Below, piece by piece: positions 30,820-46,184 of a stretch of DNA of 64,000 nt. The first letter of the stretch is position 1; the number at the start of each line of letters is the position of its first letter. The position numbers were made by a program, and so were the translations under genes. Origin of the DNA: Escherichia phage vB_EcoM_ESCO25; sequence record OM386656.1. One strand, 5' to 3'. The notes beneath the pieces were generated by a model. It saw nothing but the letters and a program-made list of their open reading frames with translations, was not told where the DNA came from and made no database searches.

Positions 30820-30849
30820 TTGTTTTCTCCTCTTGTTTTGTATGAGTTG

Positions 30850-30877
30850 ATCTTAACAGGACTAAAAAGCATGTCAA
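30850..30877 (-). promoter_or_regulatory. sigma70-like promoter (TTGACA-N16-TAAGAT) driving the minus-strand block
   Basis: Minus strand: TTGACA (30877-30872), TAAGAT (30855-30850). Confidence 0.5.
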
Positions 30878-30880
30878 TAC

Positions 30881-30908
30881 TTGATCTGAAATTATTTTCA
30901 GGTATCAT
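30881..30908 (+). promoter_or_regulatory. candidate divergent promoter (TTGATC-N16-TATCAT) for the plus-strand block
   Basis: TTGATC at 30881-86, TATCAT around 30903-08; gene 30934 follows with RBS agagagg. Confidence 0.4.
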
Positions 30909-30933
30909 ATATGAACATTAACAAGAGAGGTAG

Positions 30934-33022: not shown

Positions 33023-33379
33023 ATGAAAAAACTAATCTTAGCCACATTGCTGGCTACCGTAAGCTTCACCACTTACGCTCAAAAATTTGTAGCAGTTAAA
33101 ACAGATATTGGTAAAGATGTTGTGATCACAGGCAACAAGTTTTACTATACACCTGGGAATGGTGTTCTAGAAGAGTGTAAAGATGTTGAGGCATATACGG
33201 GAAAAGAAGATAACACGGAACGTCCTTTTTATTCGATTATAGCTACTTGCAAAAATGAAATAGTAGCTATTAAACAATACAAAGATGCCCCTGGAGGAGA
33301 ATACTTATTAGTCAAGAATATTAAGAGTGAAAAAACTGCAAAGTTTACAGTAATTATTTTAAAAGGAGAAACGTTCTAA
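33023..33379 (+). CDS. secreted or periplasmic protein (signal peptide)
   Basis: MKKLILATLLATVSFTTYAQ signal peptide; RBS ggaggga. Confidence 0.55.
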   Translation: MKKLILATLLATVSFTTYAQKFVAVKTDIGKDVVITGNKFYYTPGNGVLEECKDVEAYTGKEDNTERPFYSIIATCKNEIVAIKQYKDAPGGEYLLVKNIKSEKTAKFTVIILKGETF

Positions 33380-34518
33380 TGAAATACACTATTTTTGGAG
33401 ATGTAGCTGTTGTAAATAAGGAATATGGCGTTGAAGCTAATAAACTTCCTGCTGGAGTTTGGGTTGTCAACTGCGATCCGCACGGTAACTACTCTTTAGT
33501 GCGTGGTGAAAGTTTCTCTCTTCCGAACACTCTTTATGGGGAAACTAAAGATCGCGCCGCACATGTTATTAAAACATTTGCTCGTCGTAGTAAAGAAGGT
33601 AAAAATACTGGGGTGTTACTGACAGGGACAAAAGGCAGTGGTAAGACGATGTTAGCTAAACTAATTAGCATGTCTCTAATGTCCACAGAAGGTTTAGGTA
33701 TTCCAACCATTTTGGTTACACAGCCTTACACAGATGCTGGCTTCTTAGAATTTATGAGTAAAATTACAGATCGGGCTGTTGTTTTATTTGACGAATTTGA
33801 TAAAGTGTACGCTAAGAAAGAAGATCAGGAAGCACTGTTGACCTTGTTGGATGGAACAGGAAGTGGGAATAAACTTTACATCCTCACTAAAAATAGTGGT
33901 TATATCTCGGAATATTTTGTAAACCGTCCTAGTCGTATCTACTACAGTTTCAATTACGATAAACTGTCTAGTGAAACTATGTTAGATTACTTGGATAAGA
34001 ACTTGGTAAATAAAAAGCACGTAGATAACTTCCAACGTTTATGGGATGTTAGCACAGAGTTGTCTTTCGATGTTATTCAAGGCATTGTAGAAGAATTGAA
34101 TTTCTATCCAAAAATGACTTTTAAAGAATGTCTTGAAATGATGGGTATTTCTTTAGGGAACGATGCTAAATGGAATGTGGCTTCTATCGTAGCTAATGGC
34201 AAAACCTTGAAGGTGAATTGGATCAATAACTGGCACGACTTCACCCCTACTAAGTTTTTGTCGGGTGCTTGTTCCCTGAACATCTATCTACAAAGTTTGA
34301 AAGATGATGAAGTGGAAGCAATGGAAACCAACAGTTATGTTATCCTGGATGAAGATGGTGATCCACATATTGATCTATGTGCAACGGCTGATGGTCTAAC
34401 TTGTGATCTGATTGAAGGTGGTAAGATTCTGGTTATGAGCACTACACCAGGAAACACTTTGCGAGTGGTGCTGGAGCCTGTAACACAACGTTCCACTACA
34501 CTTGGTAGCGTGTTCTAA
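33379..34518 (+). CDS. AAA+ ATPase
   Basis: 379 aa; Walker A LLTGTKGSGKTMLAK, Walker B VVLFDEFDK. Confidence 0.7.
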   Translation: MKYTIFGDVAVVNKEYGVEANKLPAGVWVVNCDPHGNYSLVRGESFSLPNTLYGETKDRAAHVIKTFARRSKEGKNTGVLLTGTKGSGKTMLAKLISMSLMSTEGLGIPTILVTQPYTDAGFLEFMSKITDRAVVLFDEFDKVYAKKEDQEALLTLLDGTGSGNKLYILTKNSGYISEYFVNRPSRIYYSFNYDKLSSETMLDYLDKNLVNKKHVDNFQRLWDVSTELSFDVIQGIVEELNFYPKMTFKECLEMMGISLGNDAKWNVASIVANGKTLKVNWINNWHDFTPTKFLSGACSLNIYLQSLKDDEVEAMETNSYVILDEDGDPHIDLCATADGLTCDLIEGGKILVMSTTPGNTLRVVLEPVTQRSTTLGSVF

Positions 34519-34606: not shown

Positions 34607-36067
34607 GTGCCAAAAATAGTCACTTGGGAACAATATAAAACAGATATAAAACAAGCTTATCAAGGTAAGTCTTGGACTGTTGTAGATTATATTGAGCCGT
34701 GGAACGGCAATAAAACTAAACTTAGATGCATCTGTGCTCTGCATGGAGAATGGAAAACAACAAGCATAAATACCGCTAAACTAGGGAGGGGTTGTCCAGA
34801 ATGCGGTAGGGAGATTATAAGTAAAGCAGTATCTATAAACAAATCAAAAACCTGGGAGCAATATAAAGAAGAAGTGCAAACCACTTACAATCAGGCAGGT
34901 AAGTTTTGGACTGTTACAGGATGGCACGGAGAATGGAAAGGATGGAATACTAAACTGGTTTGTTGTTGTGCTTTACATGGGGAGTGGAGGTCTACTTCTA
35001 TATCTTCTGCGAAAAACGGGAGTGGATGCAGGAAGTGTATGGGAGAAGCAAACAGAGAAAGAACATCGATTGCATGGGAGAAACATAAAGAAGAAGTAGA
35101 AGAAGCTTATAAAGAAAAACCCTGGATTGTTAGAGGCTATGTGGAACCGTGGAACGGTTCCCGCACTAAGTTGATTTGTGAGTGTAAGGTTCATGGTCAA
35201 TGGTGCACTACCACTGTAAACAGTGCTAAACAAGGGACTGGATGCTACAGTTGTCAAAGAGAAATGACGAAACAAAGGAATACAATGGAGGATAAACAAC
35301 ATGTTGAAGATTTTATAAAAGCTTGTCCTGATAATGTAGAGCGTAAATATTATCGTAGCGATAGAGTAGATAGATTAGGTCGTCAGGTTTACTGGATTGT
35401 AGAATGTCCTATATGTGCAGAGGATGATTATTGTAAAGAAGGCTTATGCGATAATAAATTTGAGATGAAGATGAGTCATTTGAAAAGGGGTGGCCTTCCT
35501 TGCCGTTGTTCTAAATATTATCATTACACTCCTGAACAATGGGCCTACCGTATGACCAAAGCTTGCCAGGAACGAGGGGATCAATTTATAGGATTCATTG
35601 ATAAGGTAAGCAATAACAGCAAGTTTAAATATCTATGTAGGGAGCATGGAGAGCAAACGATCACACCTACCGATTATCTCAATGGGAAAGGTTGTCCAGG
35701 CTGTAAGAACAGAAATATGCAAGAATTTTACATCAATATTATTCTTGATGAGTACGGAGAAGACACGGGAGCTTACAAGTTGGGGATTGCAAAGGACAGT
35801 GATATCAGGATCAAAGGGCAGAATGCAAACAACAATTACTCTATGCGCCGTATAGCATTGTTCGATCTGCCGTCCTACCAAGCTTGCAGGGCGTTAGAGA
35901 GTAAGCTAAAGTCTAAGACTGATCAGATTCTACCGTCTATTGGCTGTGTAGAACGCTTGCACATGAAAGATGGTCATAGTGAAACCTTCCTGCGCGAGGA
36001 TTTGGCTATCGTCTTAAGTGCTATCAACCAAGCAGGTGGAATAATGAGAGAGGAGGAAACATGTTAG
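34607..36067 (+). CDS. Cys-rich tandem-repeat protein with C-terminal GIY-YIG/T5orf172-like region
   Basis: 486 aa; three ~70-aa repeats (W-E-Q-Y-K ... TKL-C-C-ALHGEW ... AK-G-GC-x-C) plus a fourth degenerate Cys module; C-terminal EFYINIIL...AYKLGIAKD...RRIALFDL resembles a GIY-YIG-like motif. GTG start. Confidence 0.5.
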   Translation: MPKIVTWEQYKTDIKQAYQGKSWTVVDYIEPWNGNKTKLRCICALHGEWKTTSINTAKLGRGCPECGREIISKAVSINKSKTWEQYKEEVQTTYNQAGKFWTVTGWHGEWKGWNTKLVCCCALHGEWRSTSISSAKNGSGCRKCMGEANRERTSIAWEKHKEEVEEAYKEKPWIVRGYVEPWNGSRTKLICECKVHGQWCTTTVNSAKQGTGCYSCQREMTKQRNTMEDKQHVEDFIKACPDNVERKYYRSDRVDRLGRQVYWIVECPICAEDDYCKEGLCDNKFEMKMSHLKRGGLPCRCSKYYHYTPEQWAYRMTKACQERGDQFIGFIDKVSNNSKFKYLCREHGEQTITPTDYLNGKGCPGCKNRNMQEFYINIILDEYGEDTGAYKLGIAKDSDIRIKGQNANNNYSMRRIALFDLPSYQACRALESKLKSKTDQILPSIGCVERLHMKDGHSETFLREDLAIVLSAINQAGGIMREEETC

Positions 36068-36439: not shown

Positions 36440-36619
36440 ATGGCACGTTTAGCAGATCATGAAATCTTTAAACCTATTCTGAACCACTATGATGAACTTA
36501 AAGCAGTGTTGGATTGTTATAGAGAGGATGAAGAACGTTTGGAAGTCAATCTTAAGATAGTTCTGATGAAAGCTTTTCAAGACGGGCAAGCTAAAGTTTT
36601 AGAAGGCATGAAAAAATGA
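36440..36619 (+). CDS. hypothetical small protein
   Basis: Start trimmed to MARLADH with RBS aaaggagaa. Confidence 0.45.
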   Translation: MARLADHEIFKPILNHYDELKAVLDCYREDEERLEVNLKIVLMKAFQDGQAKVLEGMKK

Positions 36620-37158
36620 GAATAACTGATGAATATGTATTCTTCTTTTCACATAAAGATGTGTTTAGTAATTGGTATATTGCACCCTTTACAGAAACTG
36701 AACCAGGTTACAATGAGACTTTCTGTTGTGTTGAGCAATATATGATGTGGCGTAAGGCTTTGCTGTTCAAGGATCATGCGATTGCAGCAGCTATCCTTGA
36801 TCACTCAACTATACGTGACAACGAGAGGAAACAAGCATACTACAAACGTATGGGTCGAGCGGTATCTGGTTTTAATAATGATATGTGGGAAGAGAACCGT
36901 GAGCGTATTGTTATGCGAGGCTTATGCTTGAAATATGTACAGAATCCAGATTTGTATGCAGACTTACACCTTTACCAATACAAAACGTTTGTTGAAGCAA
37001 GTCCTTACGATAAGGTTTACGGTATTGGAATGGGAATGTATGAACCAGGGGTGCTAAACCCTGCTACCTGGAAAGGGCAGAATCTTTTAGGAAAATATCA
37101 TAATAAACTGATCGAAATACTTTTCCCAGACAAAATACCGCAAAGACGATATTTGTGA
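36616..37158 (+). CDS. NADAR (YbiA-like) domain protein
   Basis: 180 aa; FFFSHKDVFSNWY, CVEQYMMWRKALLF, RERIVMRGLCLKYVQNPDL and VEASPYDKVYGIGMG match the NADAR/DUF1768 signature. Confidence 0.7.
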   Translation: MRITDEYVFFFSHKDVFSNWYIAPFTETEPGYNETFCCVEQYMMWRKALLFKDHAIAAAILDHSTIRDNERKQAYYKRMGRAVSGFNNDMWEENRERIVMRGLCLKYVQNPDLYADLHLYQYKTFVEASPYDKVYGIGMGMYEPGVLNPATWKGQNLLGKYHNKLIEILFPDKIPQRRYL

Positions 37159-37213
37159 TATTTTAACTTTTTTCATTTTTAGAACAAAGGTGTCACTTTG
37201 TAGCACAGAAATA

Positions 37214-37249
37214 AGGCTCCTACAGCACCGTAGAGAGCCTGTTATTTTG
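37214..37249 (+). terminator. intrinsic terminator after the NADAR gene
   Basis: Nested hairpin AGGCTC-[CTAC-agcacc-GTAG]-a-GAGCCT followed by GTTATTTTG. Confidence 0.55.
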
Positions 37250-37400
37250 TCCTATACAAACCCTTGTCTTTTTCAGTTTGCATCACTAGGATTCGATCTG
37301 AGTGGGTTCCTGAAGGTTTACCAATAAGATTAAAGGTTATATCAAATTCCCACTATCTTTTATCTCAAAAATCCCTCAAATTATTTAAACTTTTTAAGAA

Positions 37401-37578
37401 TTTACAAAAGTGAAAGTTGAAAACCAAAATTTAAAGTTTAGGAAAATTATCTTAAAATATTAGATACAAAACAAAACTCAAAAGTCAAGGAAAATTTTAA
37501 AAATTTTGCGCGCCCACAGTATTTAAAGTTTTTTTGCTTTTACAAAAATGAAAGTACAAAAGCAAAATTTAAAGTTTA
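37401..37578. repeat. two ~40-bp AT-rich direct repeats (37401-37440 and 37539-37578)
   Basis: TTTACAAAAGTGAAAGTTGAAAACCAAAATTTAAAGTTTA versus TTTACAAAAATGAAAGTACAAAAGCAAAATTTAAAGTTTA, about 34/40 identical. Confidence 0.6.
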
Positions 37579-37600
37579 CAAAAATTTTTATGCAGGTGAA

Positions 37601-37707
37601 AATGAGAAGAGTTCTCATATGGAAATGCAAATGATAATGATTCGCATTTAAGTTTATAAATGAGATTGATTCTTATTTAATAAGGTAAATGACAATCATT
37701 CTCATTT
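37601..37707. promoter_or_regulatory. array of four ~20-bp AT-rich palindromes at ~29-bp spacing (operator or Fur-box-like)
   Basis: AATGAGAAgagTTCTCAT (37601), AATGATAATGATTCGCATT (37629, contains GATAATGAT), AATGAGATTGATTCTTATT (37658), AATGACAATCATTCTCATT (37687). Confidence 0.45.
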
Positions 37708-37966
37708 AGAGAATGACGCGCAGGGGCGGTGTTTGTCTCGCGCTCCCGTGTCCCCTCGCCATGTAATAAGAATAACAGATCCAGCCAGGAAAGCAAGCGA
37801 TTATTTTATCTTTACATTTCTTTACAAATATATAGCACCCAGCCTACCGGCGATCAACCTTCCAACCAGTGCCCCCTGGTATGTTAGCCCCGCCTTTACG
37901 CCGTGGGGTGGCGCTTCCTCTTCTGTATGTAAAACAGTATAAGCCCGATCCCTGGGCTTGTCAAGA

Positions 37967-38233
37967 TTATTTTTTGTTTTCTTGCCAGGATAGGACACCT
38001 AACCAAAAATACATATCGCCCCGCGCCCCTGGTGGTATCTTGCTTTCCCCGCCGCCACTGCAAGCCCATAGATAACCATTTGCGAACGTATCAAAATGAT
38101 CTATCTCTTCCACCTTATGATCGCCCAGGTTGAGAACGGTTTCAACCTTTAAGCCCGTTGCGCTTGCTACCTGGTGCACCGTGCCGCCTTGCCAGCCCAA
38201 TGAGTGCATAAGGTGTAATGTAGTATTTGTCAT
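37967..38233 (-). CDS. possible hypothetical protein in an otherwise non-coding GC-rich island
   Basis: 88 aa ORF with weak RBS (aaggg); no recognisable promoter; low confidence. Confidence 0.3.
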   Translation of the reverse strand: MTNTTLHLMHSLGWQGGTVHQVASATGLKVETVLNLGDHKVEEIDHFDTFANGYLWACSGGGESKIPPGARGDMYFWLGVLSWQENKK

Positions 38234-38419
38234 GATATCGCCCTTTCTTTGTTGTGCGCCCTGGTTGGCGCGGTAGAAAGATAATAGCCCTTTTCTTTAT
38301 ATATAGCAAGCAAAAAGAAAATAAAAAAGATTGAAAAATGGTTGACGTTAACCAGGCGGCGGCGTAGTATTCATCTTGTAGGGCGGCAATGGTGCCGCTC
38401 ACTATTTGGAGTTAAGATC

Positions 38420-38617
38420 ATGGCAACATTGCACATTGTGGCGAAAGCTGGACAAATCAACGTAGTGGTAAACGGTTTTACTGAGTTCAGTCACCCCCAG
38501 GATGATCATGAAACGGTTTTATCTTTCATTGATTCCCTGTTAGAAATGGGAGTCATTACAGAAGACCAGCACGCTACAAAATGCAAGCGCGTTAATCAAA
38601 TCGCAGGAATAGAATAA
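38420..38617 (+). CDS. hypothetical small protein (cassette gene)
   Basis: Start set at ATG after cassette hairpin (MATLHIVAKAG...); the track ORF began upstream of the promoter. Confidence 0.5.
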   Translation: MATLHIVAKAGQINVVVNGFTEFSHPQDDHETVLSFIDSLLEMGVITEDQHATKCKRVNQIAGIE

Positions 38618-38707
38618 AAACTATTGACAACAAACAACAACCTGATAAGATGTATCACATAGGGCGGGAAGTGGTTTCCCGCTCGTAACAGAAGAGAGAT
38701 TATCATC

Positions 38708-38980
38708 ATGGCATCATATAGCGCAACAATGATCGTAGCTGGCACAACTGGTAAACCTATGAGCGGTGGCGGATCTTTCGCTAATATCAATATTGACGGG
38801 CGTTTATCCCTGGACGCAGCGATCGCTATTGCACGGGAAACATTTAAGAAAGAATGTAATTTCAACAAGCAAGATTATCTCGGTTTCGCTATTGAAAAAA
38901 CCGCGCGCTTTGTTGATTATAAAAGCCCGAAAATGGTTGATACTACACTAAAAGCGCAAGATGTAGCGTTTTTGCTTTAA
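38708..38980 (+). CDS. hypothetical small protein (cassette gene)
   Basis: 90 aa ORF after cassette; RBS agagag. Confidence 0.5.
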   Translation: MASYSATMIVAGTTGKPMSGGGSFANINIDGRLSLDAAIAIARETFKKECNFNKQDYLGFAIEKTARFVDYKSPKMVDTTLKAQDVAFLL

Positions 38981-39056
38981 GGCTTGACATTAACGAATAA
39001 TTTGTTAATATGTTACATAAAGCGGGAATAGTTCCCGCTATTTGTAAGGTGGTAGA

Positions 39057-39314
39057 ATGTTTTACATCAAATTAAAAGGTCACGTGATCGCGTTCAAAGA
39101 TAACGCTTTTTACAGATTAGCAAAATATGCGTTAATACATCCCCACTATGTTTATATAAGGAGGCGTGATGAAATAAATATCTTTGATCAAACAACATGC
39201 GAGAACATCGAGATCCGCAAGGTTGGCGTACGTGATTATCGTACATCTTTCTACCCTTGCAAGGATTCAGCAAGTCTTTTTAAAGTATGCCAATTGTTGA
39301 AAAAAGGTGGTTAA
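39057..39314 (+). CDS. hypothetical small protein (cassette gene)
   Basis: 85 aa ORF after cassette. Confidence 0.5.
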   Translation: MFYIKLKGHVIAFKDNAFYRLAKYALIHPHYVYIRRRDEINIFDQTTCENIEIRKVGVRDYRTSFYPCKDSASLFKVCQLLKKGG

Positions 39315-39873
39315 TATGGGCCGCGAATATGTGATCCAGTCTTGGGTAAAACATGAAGCAGATGATCCGCGCATCATTCCCGATCATCTTATCGATGAAT
39401 CCACGGGATATAGCGGTGAGCAAATAGGTAACAGATTAGCACGTAGTAACGGCAACGTAAAAGCGCGTTATGTGCGCCCTGGTTGGCTGGCAAATGGTAA
39501 CGCTGATTTATCCAGTGCGGAAGATGCGAGCGACGGCGCGAAAGATAATCCTTTGTACAAAGTTGATCCGGCTTTTCGTGTCCTGGATGAATACCCCAGC
39601 AAGATAGCGGCGCTCGATCAGGCCCTGGAAAGTAAGCGCATCACCTGGACCGCTTACAACATGGCAAAAAACGTACTTGATGGTAAATTGATTCAAGCTG
39701 AAAGAAAATTAGCCAAAATTGCAGCCATAGCCCAGGAGGAAGACGAGGAGACAACGGAAGAGGAAGAGTACGAAGAGATCCCGCCGTTGTTGTGTGTTGA
39801 TGCTTTTCCTGATTATCAGCCGACAGAGGAAGAAAAAAGGATCGCACTAGAAAACTTTGAAAATAGTCTTTGA
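39307..39873 (+). CDS. hypothetical protein, acidic C-terminus
   Basis: 188 aa ORF; EEDEETTEEEEYEE tail. Confidence 0.5.
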   Translation: MVNMGREYVIQSWVKHEADDPRIIPDHLIDESTGYSGEQIGNRLARSNGNVKARYVRPGWLANGNADLSSAEDASDGAKDNPLYKVDPAFRVLDEYPSKIAALDQALESKRITWTAYNMAKNVLDGKLIQAERKLAKIAAIAQEEDEETTEEEEYEEIPPLLCVDAFPDYQPTEEEKRIALENFENSL

Positions 39874-39955
39874 CATATCGCCGCCACTGGCATAATATTT
39901 ACCACGTAGGGCGGCAATGGTGCCGCTCATAGTGAAATTATGCAAGAGGCTTACA

Positions 39956-40051
39956 ATGATTAATAAAGAAAATAGCTTGACGGTTGGAACGATTAACGCT
40001 ATCATTCTAGCCGTTCCATTTTGGATTGTAGTAGCGGCTATTATTTTCTAA
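39956..40051 (+). CDS. hydrophobic micro-ORF (31 aa), not on ORF track
   Basis: MINKENSLTVGTINAIILAVPFWIVVAAIIF, downstream of cassette 39870..39927. Confidence 0.35.
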   Translation: MINKENSLTVGTINAIILAVPFWIVVAAIIF

Positions 40052-40141
40052 AAATATTCTTGACAACGTTTTTTAATCTGATAAGATGTATCACATAGGG
40101 CGGCGGAATACTTCCCCGCCAAAACAAAAAAGGGTAACACA

Positions 40142-40504
40142 ATGAGCAAGCAAATCAATACTATCATGTTAAACCTGGTATCCTTCCGCGATGATATGAA
40201 AAATTTACCACGTGAAACGGTTGATATTCATGTTTCAGCTTATCGCGCCCTTATTGACATGTTACCGCTAAAACGTGATCAACATGCCGCTAACATGATG
40301 CTTAATGCTATGCTTAAAAAGATGATTCAAACGGATCTCATCCTGGCGTATGAGTATCAAGGGCGCTTATATGCTACTTACAACAAGGCGGTACCTGGTC
40401 TGGGAAGTACCGAAGAGTTGCACGGCTTAAACCTGGATCAGAACACTTGGGATAGTATGCGCCGCGTTATGGTATGGGCCGAAAGCGGTAAAATTTACGA
40501 ATAA
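40142..40504 (+). CDS. hypothetical protein (cassette gene)
   Basis: 120 aa ORF after cassette. Confidence 0.5.
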   Translation: MSKQINTIMLNLVSFRDDMKNLPRETVDIHVSAYRALIDMLPLKRDQHAANMMLNAMLKKMIQTDLILAYEYQGRLYATYNKAVPGLGSTEELHGLNLDQNTWDSMRRVMVWAESGKIYE

Positions 40505-40586
40505 AACGGTTGACACTGTTTAAAATTCTGGTATAGTTTATCACGTAGGGCGGCAATGGTGCCGCCAACAATAAAAGGTTAACATC

Positions 40587-40766
40587 ATGACTATCATTGC
40601 AAAAACTGAGATTATAGGTTTAGATTCGATCCTCCTGGCTTATGAGGAAACTTTAAAAATGTATGTAGTGACCTATGGTGATTATGTGCGTGAATACGAA
40701 TACATTGATCTTGCTTTCGAATGTTACATTCGCCAGGTCAATAAAGCCTATAACGATTATCGTTAA
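40587..40766 (+). CDS. hypothetical small protein (59 aa), not on ORF track
   Basis: MTIIAKTEIIGLDSILLAYEETLKMYVVTYGDYVREYEYIDLAFECYIRQVNKAYNDYR after cassette 40510..40566. Confidence 0.45.
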   Translation: MTIIAKTEIIGLDSILLAYEETLKMYVVTYGDYVREYEYIDLAFECYIRQVNKAYNDYR

Positions 40767-40863
40767 AAGTTTTAGTCTTATACTATTGACAATGAGTGAT
40801 AGTATAAGCATAATAACTTTTATCGGGAATACTTCCCACTAACCAAAAAAAGAGAGTAATATC

Positions 40864-41229
40864 ATGGCTATTAATATCAATGTTTCCTCTTATGCTACCC
40901 TGGCTGACACGGCTAAAATTGAATTATCCAGCATTGAGGCGGTGCATATTAGCGCCCGTCGTTGGTTTCAACAGTCCTACGGTAACACATATTTTTCTTT
41001 AATGGTTGACGTTGAGATCGGCGGTAAACTGATCGAGGTGGTTAACGTTCCGTTTCAATATGGTTATGGTGATCATTTTGATACCGTCGCCCTGGAAGAA
41101 TTTAGCAAGGTTATTAATATGGAAGGTAAAGAGTTTTCACGCGGCGCGTATCTTTCCCGTTTTTGCCGTGACAATGGGATCACTGTATACAGTCATGCAA
41201 GCGATGTTAAACGTAAAAAAGATTTATAA
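40864..41229 (+). CDS. hypothetical protein (cassette gene)
   Basis: 121 aa ORF after cassette. Confidence 0.5.
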   Translation: MAININVSSYATLADTAKIELSSIEAVHISARRWFQQSYGNTYFSLMVDVEIGGKLIEVVNVPFQYGYGDHFDTVALEEFSKVINMEGKEFSRGAYLSRFCRDNGITVYSHASDVKRKKDL

Positions 41230-41321
41230 AAAGCATTGACAGCACGAATAAAAAGAGTAAACTGTATTACATCAAGGCGGCGGAATGGTCCACCGCCTAA
41301 CAAAGAGAAGAGGAAAACATC

Positions 41322-41489
41322 ATGATCACTTTCGCTACCCGTGAAGCCGCTCGCAACGTTGCCCGTAAAGTTAACGCCGCCAACCTGGGCGCTACGCTTA
41401 AAGCCCCTGTAAAAGATGAATCAGGAAAATGGATCTTCCCTGGTCTGCGTCATGCTGACAAGTTAGGTACTTTAAGCCTTAAAAAATAA
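41322..41489 (+). CDS. hypothetical small basic protein (55 aa), not on ORF track
   Basis: MITFATREAARNVARKVNAANLGATLKAPVKDESGKWIFPGLRHADKLGTLSLKK; shares the first 15 coding nt and RBS context with the next gene. Confidence 0.45.
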   Translation: MITFATREAARNVARKVNAANLGATLKAPVKDESGKWIFPGLRHADKLGTLSLKK

Positions 41490-41563
41490 TCGTTGACTTT
41501 TCGTTATAGCGCCTTATAATGGGCGCTATAGAGAAGAGAAACCACTACTAACAAGGAAACATC

Positions 41564-41785
41564 ATGATCACTTTCGCTATTGTCGCCGTTGTCGCTGGTC
41601 AGGTTTACATAAACGATACATTCACCACAGAAGACAAGGCCGCAGGAGACATAACCGCCGTTTACAATGAGTGCAAGGCAGTAGAAAGGATGTTAGCGCC
41701 TTGTATGCTAATGAGTGAACGCCAGGACGGGATAACAGTATTTACTAACATTGAAACAGGGTACCAAATGGTAGTAACAAAATAA
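41564..41785 (+). CDS. hypothetical small protein (cassette gene)
   Basis: 73 aa ORF; starts MITFA, identical 5' junction to the previous gene. Confidence 0.5.
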   Translation: MITFAIVAVVAGQVYINDTFTTEDKAAGDITAVYNECKAVERMLAPCMLMSERQDGITVFTNIETGYQMVVTK

Positions 41786-41864
41786 AGCTTGACACGGATT
41801 TAATTTTTAGTAAACTGTTACACGTAGGGCGGGAATAGTTCCCGCTCAAAAAGAGAGAAAGACC

Positions 41865-42218
41865 ATGAAAGCACAAAATGCAATTAAAGAGTACATCCTT
41901 GCCGCTATCGATTTTAATGATTACGGTATTACAACCGAAAAAGAGAAGATCGCGGAATTGATGCGCCGTTTTAATTCCGAGTACTGGTACCCTGATAACC
42001 AATCACGTTTTAATTATAGTATTGTTAAAGCACTTGCATCATGGTTACAAGGCTTGCCATCAGATATCAATATCGCTTTCGAATATTGGGAAATTGATCG
42101 CCTGTTAACATCCTGGGGATACATTAAAGAGAATAGCAGCGATGATAAAATCCAACGAGAAAGGGAAAATTATTGGCTTTATATTGCAGGCGTGATCCTT
42201 GCTTGCTCTTATGAATGA
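41865..42218 (+). CDS. hypothetical protein (cassette gene)
   Basis: 117 aa ORF. Confidence 0.5.
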   Translation: MKAQNAIKEYILAAIDFNDYGITTEKEKIAELMRRFNSEYWYPDNQSRFNYSIVKALASWLQGLPSDINIAFEYWEIDRLLTSWGYIKENSSDDKIQRERENYWLYIAGVILACSYE

Positions 42219-42297
42219 TAAACCTTGACAATTTTACAAAACAGTTTAAATTAACAATATAGCGGCAATGGTGCCGCTCATATGAAGAGGAAACAAA

Positions 42298-42444
42298 ATG
42301 AATACATCTAATCGCGCAGAAAAAATTCAATCTTCCAAGATCCGCAAGGCCTGGAACGAGGAAGTGATCCGCAAAGGCGACAAGCGCAATAAAACAAAGC
42401 GTGGGAAGAGTGACAAATATAATTGGATGGATTTAGAGGATTAA
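42298..42444 (+). CDS. hypothetical small basic protein (48 aa), not on ORF track
   Basis: MNTSNRAEKIQSSKIRKAWNEEVIRKGDKRNKTKRGKSDKYNWMDLED; followed by a terminator. Confidence 0.4.
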   Translation: MNTSNRAEKIQSSKIRKAWNEEVIRKGDKRNKTKRGKSDKYNWMDLED

Positions 42445-42452
42445 CATAACAA

Positions 42453-42479
42453 GGGGCGCACCAAGCGCCCTTTCTTTTT
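42453..42479 (+). terminator. intrinsic terminator (copy 1 of a repeated terminator)
   Basis: GGGGCGCACCAAGCGCCC followed by TTTCTTTTT; identical to the copy at 48656. Confidence 0.65.
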
Positions 42480-42500
42480 ACATGTAGAGGATAAACAAAG

Positions 42501-42686
42501 ATGACTTTAAGCGAGCTTAAAACAGCCTACAACGCAACGTTAAAAATAGCCGTGCGTTACCGTGACGAATACGGTTTTATTGCGCAGGGCGTGATCCTGG
42601 GCTTTTCTGACGATGGTTTGATCTATGTTGATGCACATCACAATAAGGTTAAACCTGAAAACGTCATTAGCATAAAATATCTTTAA
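42501..42686 (+). CDS. hypothetical small protein
   Basis: 61 aa ORF; RBS agagga. Confidence 0.45.
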   Translation: MTLSELKTAYNATLKIAVRYRDEYGFIAQGVILGFSDDGLIYVDAHHNKVKPENVISIKYL

Positions 42687-42770
42687 AAGTGGTTGACACC
42701 ATAACCGGACCTGTTAAACTGTATTACATCAGGCGGGGAATAGTTCCCACCATACAAAAAGGTAAATATT

Positions 42771-42977
42771 ATGATCACCGCAAAACAAGAAAAAATCATT
42801 ATCGACGTTGCAGCCGTTGCTGCTATTGCTATTATTGGATCTTATTATGACACCGCGCGTCCTTCCTCCTTGCATGAGGTCGCCGCCGTTGCATCAGTTG
42901 GCGTACTGTTTTACGTTGGTAAACGCTATTTATCACCAATGATTAACAAGCTGACACCGTGGAAAAATAAAGGTTGA
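42771..42977 (+). CDS. small membrane protein (cassette gene)
   Basis: 68 aa; hydrophobic IIIDVAAVAAIAIIGSYY. Confidence 0.5.
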   Translation: MITAKQEKIIIDVAAVAAIAIIGSYYDTARPSSLHEVAAVASVGVLFYVGKRYLSPMINKLTPWKNKG

Positions 42978-43048
42978 TCCTGTTTTATATTGTGTTATAG
43001 TTATCGTGTAGGGCGGCAATGGTGCCGCGCCCTTTTGAGGATGCAATC

Positions 43049-43333
43049 ATGAGTAAAGCTAACACCGTGCTAATGTTTTCCCTGATTAATGATTCCGCTT
43101 ACTTGTCCAACATGACGCAGGAGGGTAACACATTAACGGCAACATTCACCAATAAGCTTGACCGGGTGATCATCGTCTCACTGAAAACAGTTAGTAAAGG
43201 CTTTTACTCGTTAGCTTATCATTGGATCACCGATACCGATGAGACAAGCCAGGACTATAGCACCCCTTTCCCTGAATCAATGGCACGGGAGGTCATCGCC
43301 GCCGTTGTAAATGATGGTTTGTTTACTGCATAA
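43049..43333 (+). CDS. hypothetical protein (cassette gene)
   Basis: Start trimmed to MSKANTVLMF. Confidence 0.5.
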   Translation: MSKANTVLMFSLINDSAYLSNMTQEGNTLTATFTNKLDRVIIVSLKTVSKGFYSLAYHWITDTDETSQDYSTPFPESMAREVIAAVVNDGLFTA

Positions 43334-43431
43334 AATAATTTAGAAAAAGGCTTGCAATCATTTTGAGATAGTGTATATTTAATTCATAGGGCGGCGGGAA
43401 TAGTTCCCAAAGCAAACGAGAGGATTACACG

Positions 43432-43551
43432 ATGAGCAAGTACACAGTAGAATACACGGTAGAGAATCCGGCAGTATCCGAAGGTAAAAAGATGACATTT
43501 GCCATCAGTATAATCGCTTTCGTTGTCACTATCTTATCAATCATCTTATAA
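43432..43551 (+). CDS. hydrophobic micro-ORF (39 aa), not on ORF track
   Basis: MSKYTVEYTVENPAVSEGKKMTFAISIIAFVVTILSIIL after cassette 43352..43408. Confidence 0.4.
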   Translation: MSKYTVEYTVENPAVSEGKKMTFAISIIAFVVTILSIIL

Positions 43552-43561
43552 GGTGCACACC

Positions 43562-43723
43562 ATGAAAACAACAGATATTATCAAAGAGATCGCCCTTGCC
43601 GCTGACGTTGAGATCGAGGAAGTGATCGCGCTCAATCTTACAGAAAACGATCTGCGCAACTATGAAGCGGAAAGCGTGAAAGCAAGTGGCGCGGTCCTGG
43701 CATATAATCCGGCTAACAAATAG
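43562..43723 (+). CDS. hypothetical small protein
   Basis: Start trimmed to MKTTDIIKEI. Confidence 0.45.
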   Translation: MKTTDIIKEIALAADVEIEEVIALNLTENDLRNYEAESVKASGAVLAYNPANK

Positions 43724-43803
43724 TTTGACAAGCTGAATCAACCTGATAAGATGTATCACATAGGGGCGACAAGCGCCCCGCCTAACAGAAGAGAGAAAAA
43801 ATC

Positions 43804-44082
43804 ATGACCATCGTTAAATTAACAACCGAAGAAATGAAAACAATGTTAACCACTAATTTACAAAATTGGAAAATTGGTGTTGACGTTGAAACAGTGTGCA
43901 AGTTGAACGACAAACTAACACCGGACGACATTGAAACGATCATCCGTGCAGATTTCTATGATGCTTTATACGATGATTCCACAGTCCTTGAAACGATGTT
44001 GGATAACGCTTGGATCAATCCCGATTTGGCGGCTTATGGTCATCTTGCCTTTGAAGCCATCCATAATGTTTATAATCGTTAA
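43804..44082 (+). CDS. hypothetical protein (cassette gene)
   Basis: 92 aa ORF. Confidence 0.5.
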   Translation: MTIVKLTTEEMKTMLTTNLQNWKIGVDVETVCKLNDKLTPDDIETIIRADFYDALYDDSTVLETMLDNAWINPDLAAYGHLAFEAIHNVYNR

Positions 44083-44092
44083 GGGGGATAAC

Positions 44093-44203
44093 ATGAATCC
44101 GAAAGATATGCAAGCATGGAAAGGGTACGACGATCTAAGCGCCTTGCGCAATAAGTCAAGCCGTAACCTTAGACGGTTGGAAGCAAAGAAAAAGAAAAAA
44201 TAG
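44093..44203 (+). CDS. hypothetical small basic protein (36 aa)
   Basis: MNPKDMQAWKGYDDLSALRNKSSRNLRRLEAKKKKK; RBS aaggggga. Confidence 0.4.
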   Translation: MNPKDMQAWKGYDDLSALRNKSSRNLRRLEAKKKKK

Positions 44204-44281
44204 TTTGACAAGTCCGCCTAGTCTGATAATATGTATCTTGTAGGGCGGCAATGGTGCCGCTCACAAGAAGAGAGAAAAATC

Positions 44282-44566
44282 ATGAAAATCACAAAAAGCC
44301 TGACTAATTATGCAGCACGTCGCGGATTATGTTTAACCGTTGAAAACTTAGGGAAAGAAGACTTTTTGTGTTTTTGGGAGCTTGAAAATGATTGCGAGTG
44401 GATGTTTTCTTATTCTATCTGCGAAGATCAAAACGGTTGTTTGTTAACCTGGCGCGGTAATATCTATTTACCGGAAGAAATTAAAGAAGAGTTACCAGGT
44501 ACGATCATGACAGAGAGACAGCTTAAGGAAGTGATCAATTTTGTAGGGCAAAACATTAAAAAATAA
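44282..44566 (+). CDS. hypothetical protein (cassette gene)
   Basis: Start trimmed to MKITKSLTNY. Confidence 0.5.
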   Translation: MKITKSLTNYAARRGLCLTVENLGKEDFLCFWELENDCEWMFSYSICEDQNGCLLTWRGNIYLPEEIKEELPGTIMTERQLKEVINFVGQNIKK

Positions 44567-44651
44567 TTTGACAGTAGGCAAACAACGTAGTAAAGTTTAT
44601 TACATAGGGCGGCGGAATGGTCCACCGCTCACAACAGAAGAGAAACAAATC

Positions 44652-44822
44652 ATGATCCCGACTATGTTTTATGTATCGCGCAAAGGTCATAATATTTTTT
44701 GGTCTGAAGATTTAAATGAAGCCATGACGTTTGCCCGTGATCGTGTCGCTATCGGTGGCGTTAACATCACCGTAACCGATGAAAACGGCATTGAATACTA
44801 TAACGGCAACGATGAAGAGTAA
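44652..44822 (+). CDS. hypothetical small protein (cassette gene)
   Basis: Start trimmed to MIPTMFYVSRKG. Confidence 0.5.
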   Translation: MIPTMFYVSRKGHNIFWSEDLNEAMTFARDRVAIGGVNITVTDENGIEYYNGNDEE

Positions 44823-44866
44823 TCAACAAGGCGGGATTAATCCCGCCTGTATTAAAGGGTAATATA

Positions 44867-45013
44867 ATGAAAACTTTCAACGCAACAGCCTCGACAATTG
44901 GTTATATTATTACAGTGCAAGCCGTGGATCTGGTAGCAGCAACAAACAAGATTAAAAGAATGATCCCGATAGGCAGTGAATTTTCCGTTTGGGAAGTAAA
45001 AAATAAATCTTGA
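44867..45013 (+). CDS. hypothetical small protein (48 aa), not on ORF track
   Basis: MKTFNATASTIGYIITVQAVDLVAATNKIKRMIPIGSEFSVWEVKNKS; preceded by hairpin GGCGGGATTAATCCCGCC. Confidence 0.4.
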   Translation: MKTFNATASTIGYIITVQAVDLVAATNKIKRMIPIGSEFSVWEVKNKS

Positions 45014-45089
45014 CGATAATTTGTTATCTGATAGAATGTATTTCGTAGGGCGGGGCAATAAGGCAACGCCCATTAATGAGGGTAGAATC

Positions 45090-45194
45090 ATGTTAGAGAA
45101 AATTTTCACGGTTGTAGTAGTTGGCCTGGCGTTATCGGTTGGAGTGGTTGCAACTATGGCTAACATGATCCTATCTTCCCACGGTATCGGTTAA
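45090..45194 (+). CDS. hydrophobic micro-ORF (34 aa), not on ORF track
   Basis: MLEKIFTVVVVGLALSVGVVATMANMILSSHGIG after cassette 45010..45070. Confidence 0.4.
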   Translation: MLEKIFTVVVVGLALSVGVVATMANMILSSHGIG

Positions 45195-45195
45195 G

Positions 45196-45420
45196 GTGAA
45201 ACAAATGATCACGAACAAAACAGGCAAAACGGAATTTTTACGCGGCTTACAAGTTGGTAAGCCTGAGATCTGGCATTGCACGAAGTCCGCGCATAATGAA
45301 ATGAAAGATTTCACCGCTACTTTACAACGTGTTAAAATATCTATCACACAGAAAAAAGCCTTGTTGGTAGTAGAAAACGAGATCCCGCAAACTATTATTA
45401 TTGTCGAGCGTACAGCATGA
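45196..45420 (+). CDS. hypothetical small protein
   Basis: 74 aa ORF (GTG start; ATG at 45205 is an alternative). Confidence 0.45.
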   Translation: MKQMITNKTGKTEFLRGLQVGKPEIWHCTKSAHNEMKDFTATLQRVKISITQKKALLVVENEIPQTIIIVERTA

Positions 45421-45803
45421 AAACAGAAATCATTAACGAAATCATCAACGGCTATAAAGAAGCCTTTATTTTTGCTGAATCAGCAAGGGATCATGAAGGT
45501 AATTTTATTGATAACTTAGACGATTATGATTTTTCTCCTAGCGCGGACGAACGGATCGCCCAGGATGTAACAGCCTTTATTAATGCTAATCTTGCCGCTA
45601 TCTCTGAGGCAATGAGCGACGGCGCAACAGCCAACCAGATCGGGAATGATTTACATTTTACCCGTAACAGTCACGGCGTAGGCTTTTGGGATCGCCCTGA
45701 AATATACACCACTAACACGGCGAACCGCCTAACCAATGCAGCTAAGTTTATGCCGAACGTGTCGGCTTACATTGGTGAAGATAATTTGATTTATATTGAA
45801 TAA
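45417..45803 (+). CDS. hypothetical protein
   Basis: 128 aa ORF; ATGA overlap. Confidence 0.5.
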   Translation: MKTEIINEIINGYKEAFIFAESARDHEGNFIDNLDDYDFSPSADERIAQDVTAFINANLAAISEAMSDGATANQIGNDLHFTRNSHGVGFWDRPEIYTTNTANRLTNAAKFMPNVSAYIGEDNLIYIE

Positions 45804-45884
45804 AAAGTATTGACACAGATCGCCAGTGTGCTAATATTTACCACGTAGGGCGGCAATGGTGCCGCCGATAATGAGGAAAGTAAA

Positions 45885-46184
45885 ATGGAAACTATCGCTA
45901 TTGTTACCGTAGAAAAACTGGTTGTTGGTGATGTATTCGCGTTAATGGTGCCTAACAGCAGCAAACTGGGTGCTTATGAAGTAATGGATCATAAAAATGA
46001 ATCATTTGGCGACGGTTGCACAATGGCGGTAAAATCTTTAAAGGATGGAATCATCCGCCAGGCTAACTGGCACAAAGGGAATCAAGTCGGTTTAATATCA
46101 GCTAATTTCTTGCCAGAAGAGCAAACGTTAGACCAACTATCAGGCGGTAAGACGTTAGCCGAACTACTGGAAACAGCGATCTAA
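45885..46184 (+). CDS. hypothetical protein (cassette gene)
   Basis: 99 aa ORF. Confidence 0.5.
   Translation: METIAIVTVEKLVVGDVFALMVPNSSKLGAYEVMDHKNESFGDGCTMAVKSLKDGIIRQANWHKGNQVGLISANFLPEEQTLDQLSGGKTLAELLETAI

What the first reader, a model, noticed from the sequence alone, without database searches (positions are those of the whole stretch)
37385..37590. AT-rich non-coding region with two ~40-bp direct repeats: candidate origin or packaging-related element
Between the NADAR terminator and the first cassette lies about 1.1 kb without convincing genes, containing two 40-bp direct repeats (37401-37440 and 37539-37578, about 85 percent identical) 138 bp apart, followed by the palindrome array and a GC-rich island (37720-38100). 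Direct repeats in AT-rich DNA flanked by strong promoters are typical of replication origins or pac/cos-proximal regions.
Basis: inference. Interest (0 to 1): 0.45.

Follow-up and report, generated by a model that had tools for sequence, protein, structure and literature searches.

The report
Conserved phage control region, not packaging site
The two AT-rich repeats are real and belong to a three-unit array inside a conserved non-coding control region of rV5/phAPEC8-like phages, which lies 12 kb from the mapped genome ends, so it is not a packaging site, and may be a replication origin although that is unproven.

Summary
The repeats are real: 59 of 72 nt match, against a maximum of 48 in 500 shuffles. 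They are units 1 and 3 of a three-unit array with a period of about 69 bp (37377-37586). This is the most AT-rich 200-300 nt of the window, and its motifs occur nowhere else in a 143-kb sister genome.

The window is a Phapecoctavirus. The array is the left arm of a non-coding locus conserved across Stephanstirmvirinae and Vequintavirinae. From left to right the locus holds:
- a lineage-specific three-unit array;
- four Fur-box palindromes exactly 29 bp apart;
- leftward sigma-70 promoter P2, preceded by a CpxR-type box and followed by a conserved hairpin;
- a roughly 90-nt structured domain with compensatory changes, absent from Rfam;
- leftward promoter P1;
- an 88-aa gene.

The packaging reading is refuted. 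The genus has a 329-bp direct terminal repeat at window 49490-49818, 12 kb away. Relatives reported as circularly permuted keep the same locus.

The whole-genome GC-skew minimum lies at about 30.8 kb and only follows gene orientation.

The origin reading is neither shown nor excluded. I rank a transcription-activated origin first, at about 0.35.

The Fur-box palindromes are shared with the T5 injection-stop region.

The parts
37214..37248 (+). Intrinsic terminator of the upstream rightward operon (NADAR gene). The hairpin has a T-rich tract on both sides, so it may also stop leftward transcripts.
   Evidence: Hairpin AGGCTCCTAC...GTAGAGAGCCT followed by GTTATTTTG. The same site is annotated as an ARNold terminator in phAPEC8.
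37377..37448 (.). Array unit 1: box A TTATTTAAACTTTTT and box B AAAACCAAAATTTAAAGTTT.
   Evidence: It is 100% identical in phAPEC8 and TSP7_1, and 81% identical in phiWec186 where the flank is 63%.
37449..37514 (.). Array unit 2, decayed in this genus and intact in phi92, Tr1 and phi1_175008. It ends with an AAAATTTTAAAAATTTT tract and a short GC clamp.
   Evidence: (family D2, 79%) and the alignment.
37515..37586 (.). Array unit 3: box A GTATTTAAAGTTTTT and box B AAAAGCAAAATTTAAAGTTT.
   Evidence: This unit is also conserved in phi92-like phages (their match starts at window 37495).
37601..37706 (.). Four Fur-box-type 19-bp palindromes at 37601, 37630, 37659 and 37688, exactly 29 bp apart.
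   Evidence: The consensus AATGAgAATcATTctCATT is the published Fur box of the Xanthomonas Fur regulon (PMC1790865). One to six copies sit at the same place in all relatives. T5-like phages share the sequence.
37718..37762 (-). Leader hairpin of promoter P2, with the conserved apical loop GAGACAAACACC.
   Evidence: It folds in every genus with different stems and is aligned. The module is duplicated in rV5-like EmilHeitz.
37769..37796 (-). Promoter P2 (sigma-70 type): TTGCTT-16-TATTCT.
   Evidence: The hexamers are conserved and the spacer is free to vary across genera: TTGATC-16-TATTAT in PVP-SE1 and GAP31, TTGCAA-17-TATATT in phiTE (read from the alignments). Inferred; no transcript data.
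37811..37825 (-). CpxR-type box GTAAAGAAATGTAAA, directly upstream of P2.
   Evidence: There are only two exact GTAAA-N5-GTAAA matches in 64 kb, and they are the same 15-mer. Each lies upstream of a -35 element on the same strand. The box is conserved in all genera that have P2. The consensus is cited in PMC9603713.
37844..37927 (-). Structured domain downstream of P1. It has a hairpin H3, a long-range helix H1, and a helix H2 that crosses H1, which makes a pseudoknot.
   Evidence: In 26 distinct sequences, 94.8% of cells are paired against 88.2% in shuffles (0/500). There are 25 compensatory cells against 6.9 (0/500), and slid controls reach at most 49.3%. H2 occurs as CCCC/GGGG, CCAA/UUGG, CCAG/CUGG and CUCC/GGGG. 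There is no Rfam match.
37936..37964 (-). Promoter P1 (sigma-70 type): TTGACA-17-TATACT, 11/12 to consensus.
   Evidence: It is conserved with a variable spacer: TTGCAA-17-TATAGT in PVP-SE1, TTGACG-18-TATACT in phiTE, TTGACA-17-CATAAT in Tr1, TTGACG-18-TACAAT in the Erwinia phage.
37967..38233 (-). 88-aa gene of unknown function.
   Evidence: phrog_19316; 21 homologues; AlphaFold2 pLDDT 93.9; no structural match. It is annotated in ESCO13 and phi92.
38281..38309 (-). Promoter-like site for the 88-aa gene, TTGCTA-17-TATTAT, divergent from the first rightward cassette promoter at 38342.

Best explanation
SHOWN. The two repeats are the outer units of a three-unit AT-rich array with a period of about 69 bp. 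Each unit carries a box A (TTATTTAAAsTTTTT) and a box B (AAAAsCAAAATyTAAAGTTT). The array is unique in the genome and is the left arm of a roughly 0.75-kb non-coding locus conserved in rV5-like and phAPEC8-like phages. The locus reads, in window orientation: array, then four phased Fur-box palindromes, then leftward promoter P2 with a CpxR-type box and a conserved leader hairpin, then a structured pseudoknotted domain, then leftward promoter P1. It lies 12 kb inside the right genome end and is not the packaging site.

INFERRED (most likely function). The locus is a transcription-activated replication origin. Host RNA polymerase would start at P1 and P2 early in infection and transcribe leftward through the Fur-box array into the array, the most easily melted DNA of the region. 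A lineage-specific phage protein would bind the three units. Transcription, or a persistent RNA-DNA hybrid left by the G-rich P2 leader, would open the DNA or prime it for the phage replisome, as at the T4 oriF/oriG and T7 primary origins. Iron-loaded Fur on the phased boxes, and phosphorylated CpxR at P2, would modulate how much transcription reaches the array.
For: Identity and conservation. The window is a Phapecoctavirus. The locus is syntenic in phAPEC8, ESCO13, phi92, Tr1, phi1_175008, PVP-SE1, GAP31, phiTE, an Erwinia Henunavirus and rV5-like EmilHeitz.

The array. Three units are present in every lineage I read, but their sequence differs by lineage: ATTATTTAAAGTTTTT-type in Stephanstirmvirinae and GGTACTCGATC-type in Vequintavirinae. 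This is the pattern expected for a co-evolving phage DNA-binding protein. Units 1 and 3 are better conserved than their flanks. Boxes A and B occur nowhere else in a 143-kb sister genome. The stretch 37378-37677 is the most AT-rich 200-300 nt of the 64-kb window, at 21-23% GC. As a single strand the array folds no better than shuffles (z = +0.36), which argues for a duplex-DNA role rather than an RNA structure.

The promoters. P1 and P2 keep their hexamers while their spacers vary, across subfamilies. Both point into the array.

The ends. The locus is kept in phages with short terminal repeats and in phages reported as circularly permuted (PMC3475682). Its role therefore does not depend on genome ends.

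Status in the literature. No origin has been defined in this phage group (PMC3606486).
Against: There is no replication data of any kind.

Units of 69-100 bp are much longer and more widely spaced than classical 17-22-bp iterons.

No initiator gene was recognised nearby. The AAA+ ATPase at 33379-34518 gives only generic AAA hits, and the adjacent 88-aa protein has no recognisable DNA-binding fold.

There are no DnaA boxes and no IHF consensus in 37150-37750.

The global GC-skew minimum lies elsewhere, although it is uninformative here.

The Fur-box palindromes shared with T5 lie in a T5 region not thought to be its origin (bioRxiv 10.1101/866236).

Transcription from P1 and P2, and Fur and CpxR binding, are predicted from sequence only.
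Confidence: 0.35

Rival explanations
1. Small-RNA or leader-RNA locus. P1 and P2 make regulatory non-coding RNAs: the pseudoknotted P1 domain and the P2 hairpin with its conserved GAGACAAACACC loop as a seed. These would act in trans on host or phage targets, or in cis as a put- or nut-like antitermination element. The AT-rich array would be only the untranslated 3' region where these transcripts stop, or an insulator that protects the upstream rightward operon from convergent transcription.
For: Compensatory base changes support a structure in the P1 domain. The P2 hairpin keeps its loop while its stems vary. In rV5-like EmilHeitz the promoter-hairpin-Fur-box module is duplicated as a unit. 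The P1 motif is specific to phages and absent from Rfam. A terminator with T-tracts on both sides closes the unit at 37214-37248.
Against: This does not explain why a three-unit array with lineage-specific boxes is kept at the same place in all genera and is better conserved than its flanks. The array shows no fold signal. No strong terminator follows either RNA domain. Pair statistics do not decide the strand: 5 G-U against 3 A-C cells. This reading can also be true alongside the origin reading.
Confidence: 0.25
2. Host-factor decoy or sensor. The phased Fur boxes, and the CpxR-type boxes, serve mainly to titrate or read host Fur and CpxR. This would couple early phage transcription to iron status and envelope stress, or de-repress the host Fur regulon as genome copies accumulate. 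The array would be accessory bent DNA.
For: In a 143-kb genome all seven Fur-box matches with at most 3 mismatches lie in the two non-coding regions that bracket the terminal early cassettes. Four of them are phased at exactly 29 bp. Shuffled windows give a mean of 3.3 hits at 4 or fewer mismatches, against 12 observed. The motif equals a published Fur-box consensus. Both exact CpxR-type boxes sit upstream of promoters.
Against: Binding was not tested. The boxes at 37.6 kb lie downstream of P2 rather than over a promoter. The reading gives no role to the repeats the finding is about.
Confidence: 0.12
3. T5-like boundary of a first-entering terminal segment. The right end would enter first, and DNA transfer would pause at the Fur-box and repeat region after the roughly 12-kb block of sigma-70-driven small early genes, as at the T5 injection stop signal.
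For: T5-like phages carry the same palindromes: 84-87% identity over 55 nt to window 37623-37677. In the T5-like phage chee24 they lie within the left terminal repeat, about 300 bp from its inner end. That region corresponds to Davison's Repeat Region 3 of T5, his candidate injection stop signal. Here the locus lies 12.2 kb, about 8% of the genome, from a fixed end. It closes a block of cassettes with near-consensus host promoters. T5-like phages and Vequintavirinae share sensitivity to daunorubicin (PMC13250531), which is only circumstantial.
Against: The same locus exists in phiTE and PVP-SE1, which are reported as circularly permuted and so have no fixed entering end. The distance to the end varies: 8.3 kb in DIJ07P1. 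The T5 DnaA-box pairs are absent. Fur boxes also lie inside the terminal repeat itself. The cassette genes point towards the end. Two-step transfer has never been reported for these myophages.
Confidence: 0.08
4. Packaging (pac/cos) recognition site.
For: Only the general resemblance of repeats in AT-rich DNA. Three spaced sites recall the three R sites of lambda cosB (from my own knowledge, not tested here).
Against: The ends map to window 49490-49818. The first and last 329 nt of the Schickermooser record are identical, and a 328-bp repeat was reported for it (PMC6563267). Ten further distinct phage records break at about 49809-49818. The terminal repeat of the phi92-like phage BME3 maps to the same second non-coding region.
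Confidence: 0.02
5. A non-functional local duplication in an AT-rich spacer.
For: The middle unit has decayed in this genus.
Against: Units 1 and 3 are 100% identical in phages whose flanks differ by 3-4%, and 81-82% identical where the flanks are 59-63%. Three-unit arrays sit at the same place in distant genera.
Confidence: 0.03

Closest known systems
Transcription-dependent phage origins: T4 oriF/oriG (promoter plus downstream unwinding element, R-loop primer) and the T7 primary origin (promoters followed by AT-rich DNA). From established knowledge; not tested here.
   Same: Promoters point into the most AT-rich DNA of the region. The leader is G-rich. The phage is a virulent one that encodes its own replisome.
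   Different: Those origins have no three-unit repeat array, no Fur or CpxR sites and no conserved pseudoknotted leader. No replication data exist for this locus.
Iteron origins of lambdoid phages and of plasmids such as lambda ori, P1 oriR and pSC101.
   Same: Direct repeats with lineage-specific sequence lie next to AT-rich DNA and candidate host-factor sites, at a single locus in the genome.
   Different: The units are 69-100 bp with two boxes each, not 17-22-bp iterons about two helical turns apart. No initiator gene overlaps or adjoins the array. DnaA and IHF sites are absent.
Repeat Region 3 of the T5 left terminal repeat, the candidate injection stop signal (Davison, bioRxiv 10.1101/866236).
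   Same: It has the same family of 19-bp palindromes, with 84-87% identity over 55 nt, followed by a GC hairpin and an array of direct repeats. It borders a terminal block of host-promoter-driven early genes.
   Different: The T5 region lies inside a 10-kb terminal repeat, carries paired DnaA boxes and nine 15-bp DRD repeats, and has no P1/P2 leader module. Here the terminal repeat is 329 bp and 12 kb away.
Fur boxes (9-1-9 consensus AATGAtAATnATTaTCATT; Xanthomonas form AATGAgAATcATTctCATT, PMC1790865).
   Same: There are exact or near-exact matches with 0-3 mismatches, and many copies carry GATAAT half-sites.
   Different: Known Fur boxes overlap promoters of iron genes. These form phased arrays in non-coding DNA of a virulent phage, downstream of a promoter.
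CpxR-P activator sites (GTAAA-N4-8-GTAAA, PMC9603713).
   Same: A perfect tandem pentamer with a 5-nt spacer lies upstream of the -35 element and is conserved across genera.
   Different: The distance to the -35 element varies (5, 14 and 19 nt). Binding was not tested, and another direct-repeat-binding regulator could be the real partner.

Membership tests
pac/cos packaging site | Coincides with, or adjoins, the physical genome ends | tested here: not met
   The ends are at window 49490-49818, a 329-bp terminal repeat 12 kb away.
pac/cos packaging site | Present only in phages that use that end-formation mode | tested here: not met
   The same locus is found in phages with short terminal repeats and in relatives reported as circularly permuted.
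Iteron-type or transcription-activated replication origin | Cluster of direct repeats, unique in the genome | tested here: met
   Three units are present, and boxes A and B occur nowhere else in 143 kb.
Iteron-type or transcription-activated replication origin | Adjacent or overlapping easily melted AT-rich DNA | tested here: met
   It is the lowest-GC 200-300 nt of the window, at 21-23%.
Iteron-type or transcription-activated replication origin | Promoter directing transcription into the element | tested here: inconclusive
   The conserved consensus promoters P1 and P2 point into it, but there are no transcript data.
Iteron-type or transcription-activated replication origin | Cognate initiator protein encoded nearby | tested here: inconclusive
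   The neighbouring AAA+ ATPase and the 88-aa protein could not be assigned.
Iteron-type or transcription-activated replication origin | Replication initiates there or the fragment supports replication | not testable with these tools
   This needs marker-frequency analysis, 2D gels or a plasmid assay.
Iteron-type or transcription-activated replication origin | Strand-composition switch at the site | tested here: not met
   The cumulative GC-skew minimum is at about 30.8 kb. It coincides with the switch in gene orientation, so it is of little weight.
Fur box | 19-bp 9-1-9 inverted repeat matching the consensus | tested here: met
   Four sites match with 1-3 mismatches, and one site at 49743 matches with none.
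Fur box | Overlaps a promoter that it represses | tested here: inconclusive
   The boxes lie 45-160 nt downstream of the predicted P2 start. No convincing overlapping promoter was found.
Fur box | Bound by Fur-Fe2+ | not testable with these tools
   This needs a gel-shift, footprint or ChIP experiment.
CpxR box | GTAAA-N4-8-GTAAA tandem repeat upstream of a promoter | tested here: met
   There are two exact sites in 64 kb, both upstream of a -35 element on the same strand.
CpxR box | Bound by CpxR-P and responsive to it | not testable with these tools
   This needs binding assays and a cpxR mutant host.
T5 injection stop region (Repeat Region 3) | Shared palindromes | tested here: met
   84-87% identity over 55 nt.
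T5 injection stop region (Repeat Region 3) | Paired DnaA boxes | tested here: not met
   There is no TTATNCACA match with 1 mismatch or fewer between 36617 and 38203.
T5 injection stop region (Repeat Region 3) | Lies at the inner edge of a long terminal repeat | tested here: not met
   The terminal repeat here is 329 bp and 12 kb away.
T5 injection stop region (Repeat Region 3) | Two-step DNA transfer | not testable with these tools
   This needs entry-kinetics experiments.
Any Rfam RNA family | Covariance-model match | tested here: not met
   Nothing reaches E below 0.5, and every match is far below its gathering score. No tRNA or tmRNA was found.

The most novel reading that the evidence does not exclude
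Two unrelated groups of virulent coliphages, T5-like siphoviruses and rV5/phAPEC8-like myoviruses, use the same phased arrays of host Fur boxes as a nucleoprotein landmark at the inner border of their terminal host-takeover gene block. In the phAPEC8-like phages this landmark would pause DNA entry, or gate leftward transcription, after the roughly 12-kb right-terminal segment, in a T5-like two-step infection. It would be controlled by iron status (Fur) and envelope stress (CpxR) and accompanied by a new pseudoknotted leader RNA.
Probability: 0.08. Interest if true: 0.85.

Novelty: new variant of a known kind. Interest (0 to 1): 0.5.

Why it matters
No replication origin has been defined for the rV5-like, phi92-like or phAPEC8-like phages, which are common in sewage and widely used in phage therapy cocktails. 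This locus is the obvious place to test.

Whatever the array does, the work gives four concrete leads:
- a conserved structured RNA domain that is not in Rfam;
- a promoter-hairpin-Fur-box module that is duplicated in rV5-like phages;
- the observation that the long-unexplained palindromes of the T5 injection-stop region match the Fur-box consensus;
- a possible wiring of early phage transcription to host iron and envelope-stress regulators.

It also places the genome ends for this window, which corrects the packaging idea.

Tried and rejected
- Rfam scan of 36900-38700 at E up to 5 gave only chance hits. There are no tRNA or tmRNA genes in the window.
- Coding potential of the GC-rich core: the ORFs differ between phages and are broken by indels. 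Rejected.
- Classical 19-mer Fur consensus GATAATGATAATCATTATC at 3 mismatches or fewer gave no hits. The right register is the 9-1-9 form.
- DnaA boxes and the IHF consensus are absent from the locus.
- The phiTE pseudo-ToxI repeat locus was considered because phiTE has repeats at the syntenic place. It maps elsewhere, at 106.7 kb. Rejected.
- The AAA+ ATPase upstream, as a possible initiator, gives only generic AAA similarity.
- The 88-aa protein, as a possible DNA binder, gives a confident model with no fold match.
- GC skew, both in the window and over a whole sister genome, follows transcription blocks only.
- A scan of bacterial genomes for the P1 motif returned one short metagenome-assembled contig.
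- The G-U against A-C count, used to pick the transcribed strand, was 5 against 3 and is not decisive.
- Folding the array as single-stranded DNA gave no signal.
- The BME3 GenBank record is internally redundant at its ends, so I used it only to place its terminal repeat in the second non-coding region.
- Literature searches for transcriptomes of these phages found nothing usable.

Full report
**What the window is.** Megablast of 36600-38700 finds 68 phage records that cover it almost fully at 92-99.9% identity. All are Phapecoctavirus (phAPEC8, ESCO13, Schickermooser and others; Stephanstirmvirinae), E. coli myophages of about 150 kb. In those records the stretch between the NADAR gene and the first small rightward cassette is annotated inconsistently or left empty.

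**Check of the observation.** The repeats exist.
- The similarity extends to 72 nt (37377-37448 and 37515-37586), 59/72 identical.
- In 500 first-order shuffles of the same AT-rich stretch the best 72-nt match never exceeded 48.
- A third, weaker copy lies between them (family D2).
- Alignment with phiWec186, phi92, Citrobacter phage Tr1 and Klebsiella phage phi1_175008 shows three units in all of them. Each unit has a box A (TTATTTAAAsTTTTT) and a box B (AAAAsCAAAATyTAAAGTTT). In this genus the middle unit has decayed.

The finding is therefore a three-unit array with a period of about 69 bp (37377-37586). Units 1 and 3 are identical in phAPEC8 and TSP7_1, whose flanks differ by 3-4%. They are 81-82% identical in phiWec186, where the flank and unit 2 are 59-63%. 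Boxes A and B occur nowhere else in a complete 143-kb sister genome. The stretch 37378-37677 is the most AT-rich 200-300 nt of the whole window. As a single strand the array folds no better than shuffles.

**The surroundings are a conserved composite locus.** A sensitive blastn shows that the part conserved furthest, about 72% identity into Vequintavirinae (PVP-SE1, GAP31, KB57, phiTE, Erwinia and Cronobacter phages), is window 37659-37933. I read the syntenic loci and contigs fetched from IMG/VR by pattern. The same order recurs in every lineage I read:
- rightward genes and a terminator;
- a three-unit repeat array whose sequence is lineage-specific: GGTACTCGATC-type units of about 100 bp in PVP-SE1, GAP31, the rV5-like phage and the Erwinia phage, and a run of at least seven GGGTCTCGATC-type copies in phiTE;
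- one to six 19-bp palindromes;
- a GC-rich core;
- a small leftward ORF;
- a divergent promoter and rightward cassettes.

**The palindromes are Fur boxes by sequence.**
- The four copies here start at 37601, 37630, 37659 and 37688, exactly 29 bp apart. Tandem Repeats Finder reports the period of 29.
- Their consensus AATGAGAATCATTCTCATT is letter for letter the Fur-box consensus derived from the Fur-regulated TonB-dependent receptor genes of Xanthomonas. That paper also reports it as 84% identical to the Shewanella and Bacillus Fur consensuses (PMC1790865).
- Many phage copies carry the canonical GATAAT half-site.
- In the whole 143-kb genome only seven sites match with 3 mismatches or fewer. 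These are the four here, plus 48889, 49564 and 49743 in the second large non-coding region.
- Fur binding itself was not tested.

**The GC-rich core is two leftward promoters with structured leaders.**
- P1 (37964-37936, TTGACA-17-TATACT) keeps both hexamers in every genus while its spacer changes freely.
- P2 (37796-37769, TTGCTT-16-TATTCT) behaves the same way: TTGATC-16-TATTAT in PVP-SE1 and GAP31, TTGCAA-17-TATATT in phiTE.
- Directly upstream of P2 lies GTAAAGAAATGTAAA, a perfect match to the E. coli CpxR consensus GTAAA(N)4-8GTAAA (PMC9603713).
- The only other exact match in 64 kb is the same 15-mer at 48115, again upstream of a consensus promoter on the same strand.
- Downstream of P2, every genus folds a hairpin with the conserved loop GAGACAAACACC and different stems. 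rV5-like EmilHeitz has this promoter-hairpin-Fur-box module twice and lacks the P1 domain.
- Downstream of P1 lies an 84-nt domain (37927-37844) with three helices. On 26 distinct sequences, 94.8% of cells pair against 88.2% in shuffles (0/500). Compensatory cells number 25 against 6.9 (0/500). Slid controls pair in at most 49.3% of cells.
- Helix H2 occurs as CCCC/GGGG, CCAA/UUGG, CCAG/CUGG and CUCC/GGGG. It crosses helix H1, so the fold is a pseudoknot.
- Pair types do not decide the strand: 5 G-U against 3 A-C cells. The minus strand is assigned from the promoters.
- The domain has no Rfam match and is essentially absent from bacterial genomes.

The ORF at 37967-38233 (minus strand) is a real gene. 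It has 21 homologues and a confident five-helix model (pLDDT 93.9), but no structural relative.

**Packaging is excluded.**
- Korf et al. reported a 328-bp terminal repeat for Schickermooser (PMC6563267).
- The first and last 329 nt of that record are identical and map to window 49490-49818.
- Ten further distinct phage records break at about 49809-49818.
- The phi92-like phage BME3 has a 342-bp terminal repeat that maps to the same second non-coding region.

The finding is therefore 12 kb inside the right end. PhiTE and PVP-SE1 were reported as terminally redundant and circularly permuted (PMC3475682) and still carry the locus. Its role therefore cannot depend on the ends.

**GC skew.** On a complete sister genome (DIJ07P1) the cumulative GC skew has its minimum at window position about 30.8 kb and its maximum 16.9 kb from the left end. 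Both are switches of gene orientation, and nothing happens at 37.4 kb. The rV5 authors reached the same conclusion and left the origin undefined (PMC3606486).

**The link to T5.** T5-like phages match window 37623-37677 at 84-87% identity. In chee24 the match lies inside the left terminal repeat, about 300 bp from its inner end. The surrounding chee24 sequence has at least six such palindromes. Paired DnaA-type boxes lie upstream, and a GC hairpin and nine DRD repeats follow. This corresponds to Davison's Repeat Region 3 of T5, his candidate injection stop signal, for which no function of the palindromes is given and Fur is not mentioned. Here the locus closes the right-terminal 12 kb of small genes with host-type promoters. 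That makes a T5-like two-step entry thinkable. The permuted relatives, the variable distance to the end (8.3 kb in DIJ07P1) and the missing DnaA boxes argue against it.

**Most likely mechanism.** The following is shown: a unique, conserved, lineage-specific three-unit array in the most meltable DNA, candidate host-factor sites, and two conserved promoters aimed at the array.

The following is inferred: the locus is a transcription-activated origin. An unidentified phage protein would bind the units. Leftward transcription from P1 and P2 would open or prime the DNA, and Fur and CpxR would modulate it. I give this 0.35.

The rivals are listed here. The first two are compatible with an origin.
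- A small-RNA or leader-RNA locus, with the array as its 3' region or an insulator: 0.25.
- A Fur/CpxR decoy or sensor: 0.12.
- A T5-like entry boundary: 0.08.
- Decayed duplication: 0.03.
- Packaging: 0.02.

**Verdict.** The locus as a whole is a new variant of known kinds of control region. It contains a structured RNA domain that I could not find described and an unnoticed Fur-box link to T5. The locus is of moderate interest.

Noticed in passing
window 48641-50102: This is a second large non-coding region. It contains the genus' 329-bp direct terminal repeat (49490-49818), the other three good Fur boxes of the genome (48889, 49564, 49743; the last two inside the repeat), and the AT-richest 100 nt of the window right at the left genome end (49492-49591, 17% GC).
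   Followed up: partly
window 48115-48177: A second exact copy of the CpxR-type 15-mer GTAAAGAAATGTAAA lies 19 nt upstream of a TTGACA-17-TATATT promoter for ORF 48221-48640 (phrog_12277, function unknown).
   Followed up: partly
window 37967-38233 (minus strand): An 88-aa gene with a conserved LGWQGGTVHQVA motif gives a confident five-helix predicted fold with no match in the PDB. A terminator-like hairpin (37959-37941) sits in the spacer of promoter P1.
   Followed up: yes
window 34607-36067: A 486-aa protein is built of five CapR-homology repeats (PF21817). It falls in a PHROG family (phrog_681) labelled 'endonuclease'; the function is unclear.
   Followed up: no
window 30820-30933: A 114-nt divergent intergenic gap coincides with the global cumulative GC-skew minimum of the genome. 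An exact DnaA-box consensus (TTATTCACA) lies at 31245; about two such matches are expected by chance in the window.
   Followed up: partly
L007 (T5-like phage chee24) 2040-2850: The region corresponding to the T5 injection stop region contains at least six palindromes that fit the Fur-box consensus. They are followed by a GC hairpin with a T-run and nine TGTGCGAATCCGACA repeats. The paper on this region that I read (bioRxiv 10.1101/866236) does not mention Fur.
   Followed up: partly
L029 (rV5-like phage EmilHeitz) 2040-2300: The promoter-hairpin-Fur-box module is present twice in tandem, and the P1 structured domain is missing.
   Followed up: partly
window 43670-48612: This part of the early cassette block is absent from the otherwise 95-98% identical phage DIJ07P1, so about 5 kb of terminal cassettes are dispensable or variable.
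   Followed up: no
window 38340-48640: The cassettes share a repeated promoter-plus-stem-loop module, for example TGATAAGATGTATCA at 38643, 40079 and 43744. These correspond to the host-dependent and PHIRE promoters annotated in phAPEC8.
   Followed up: no
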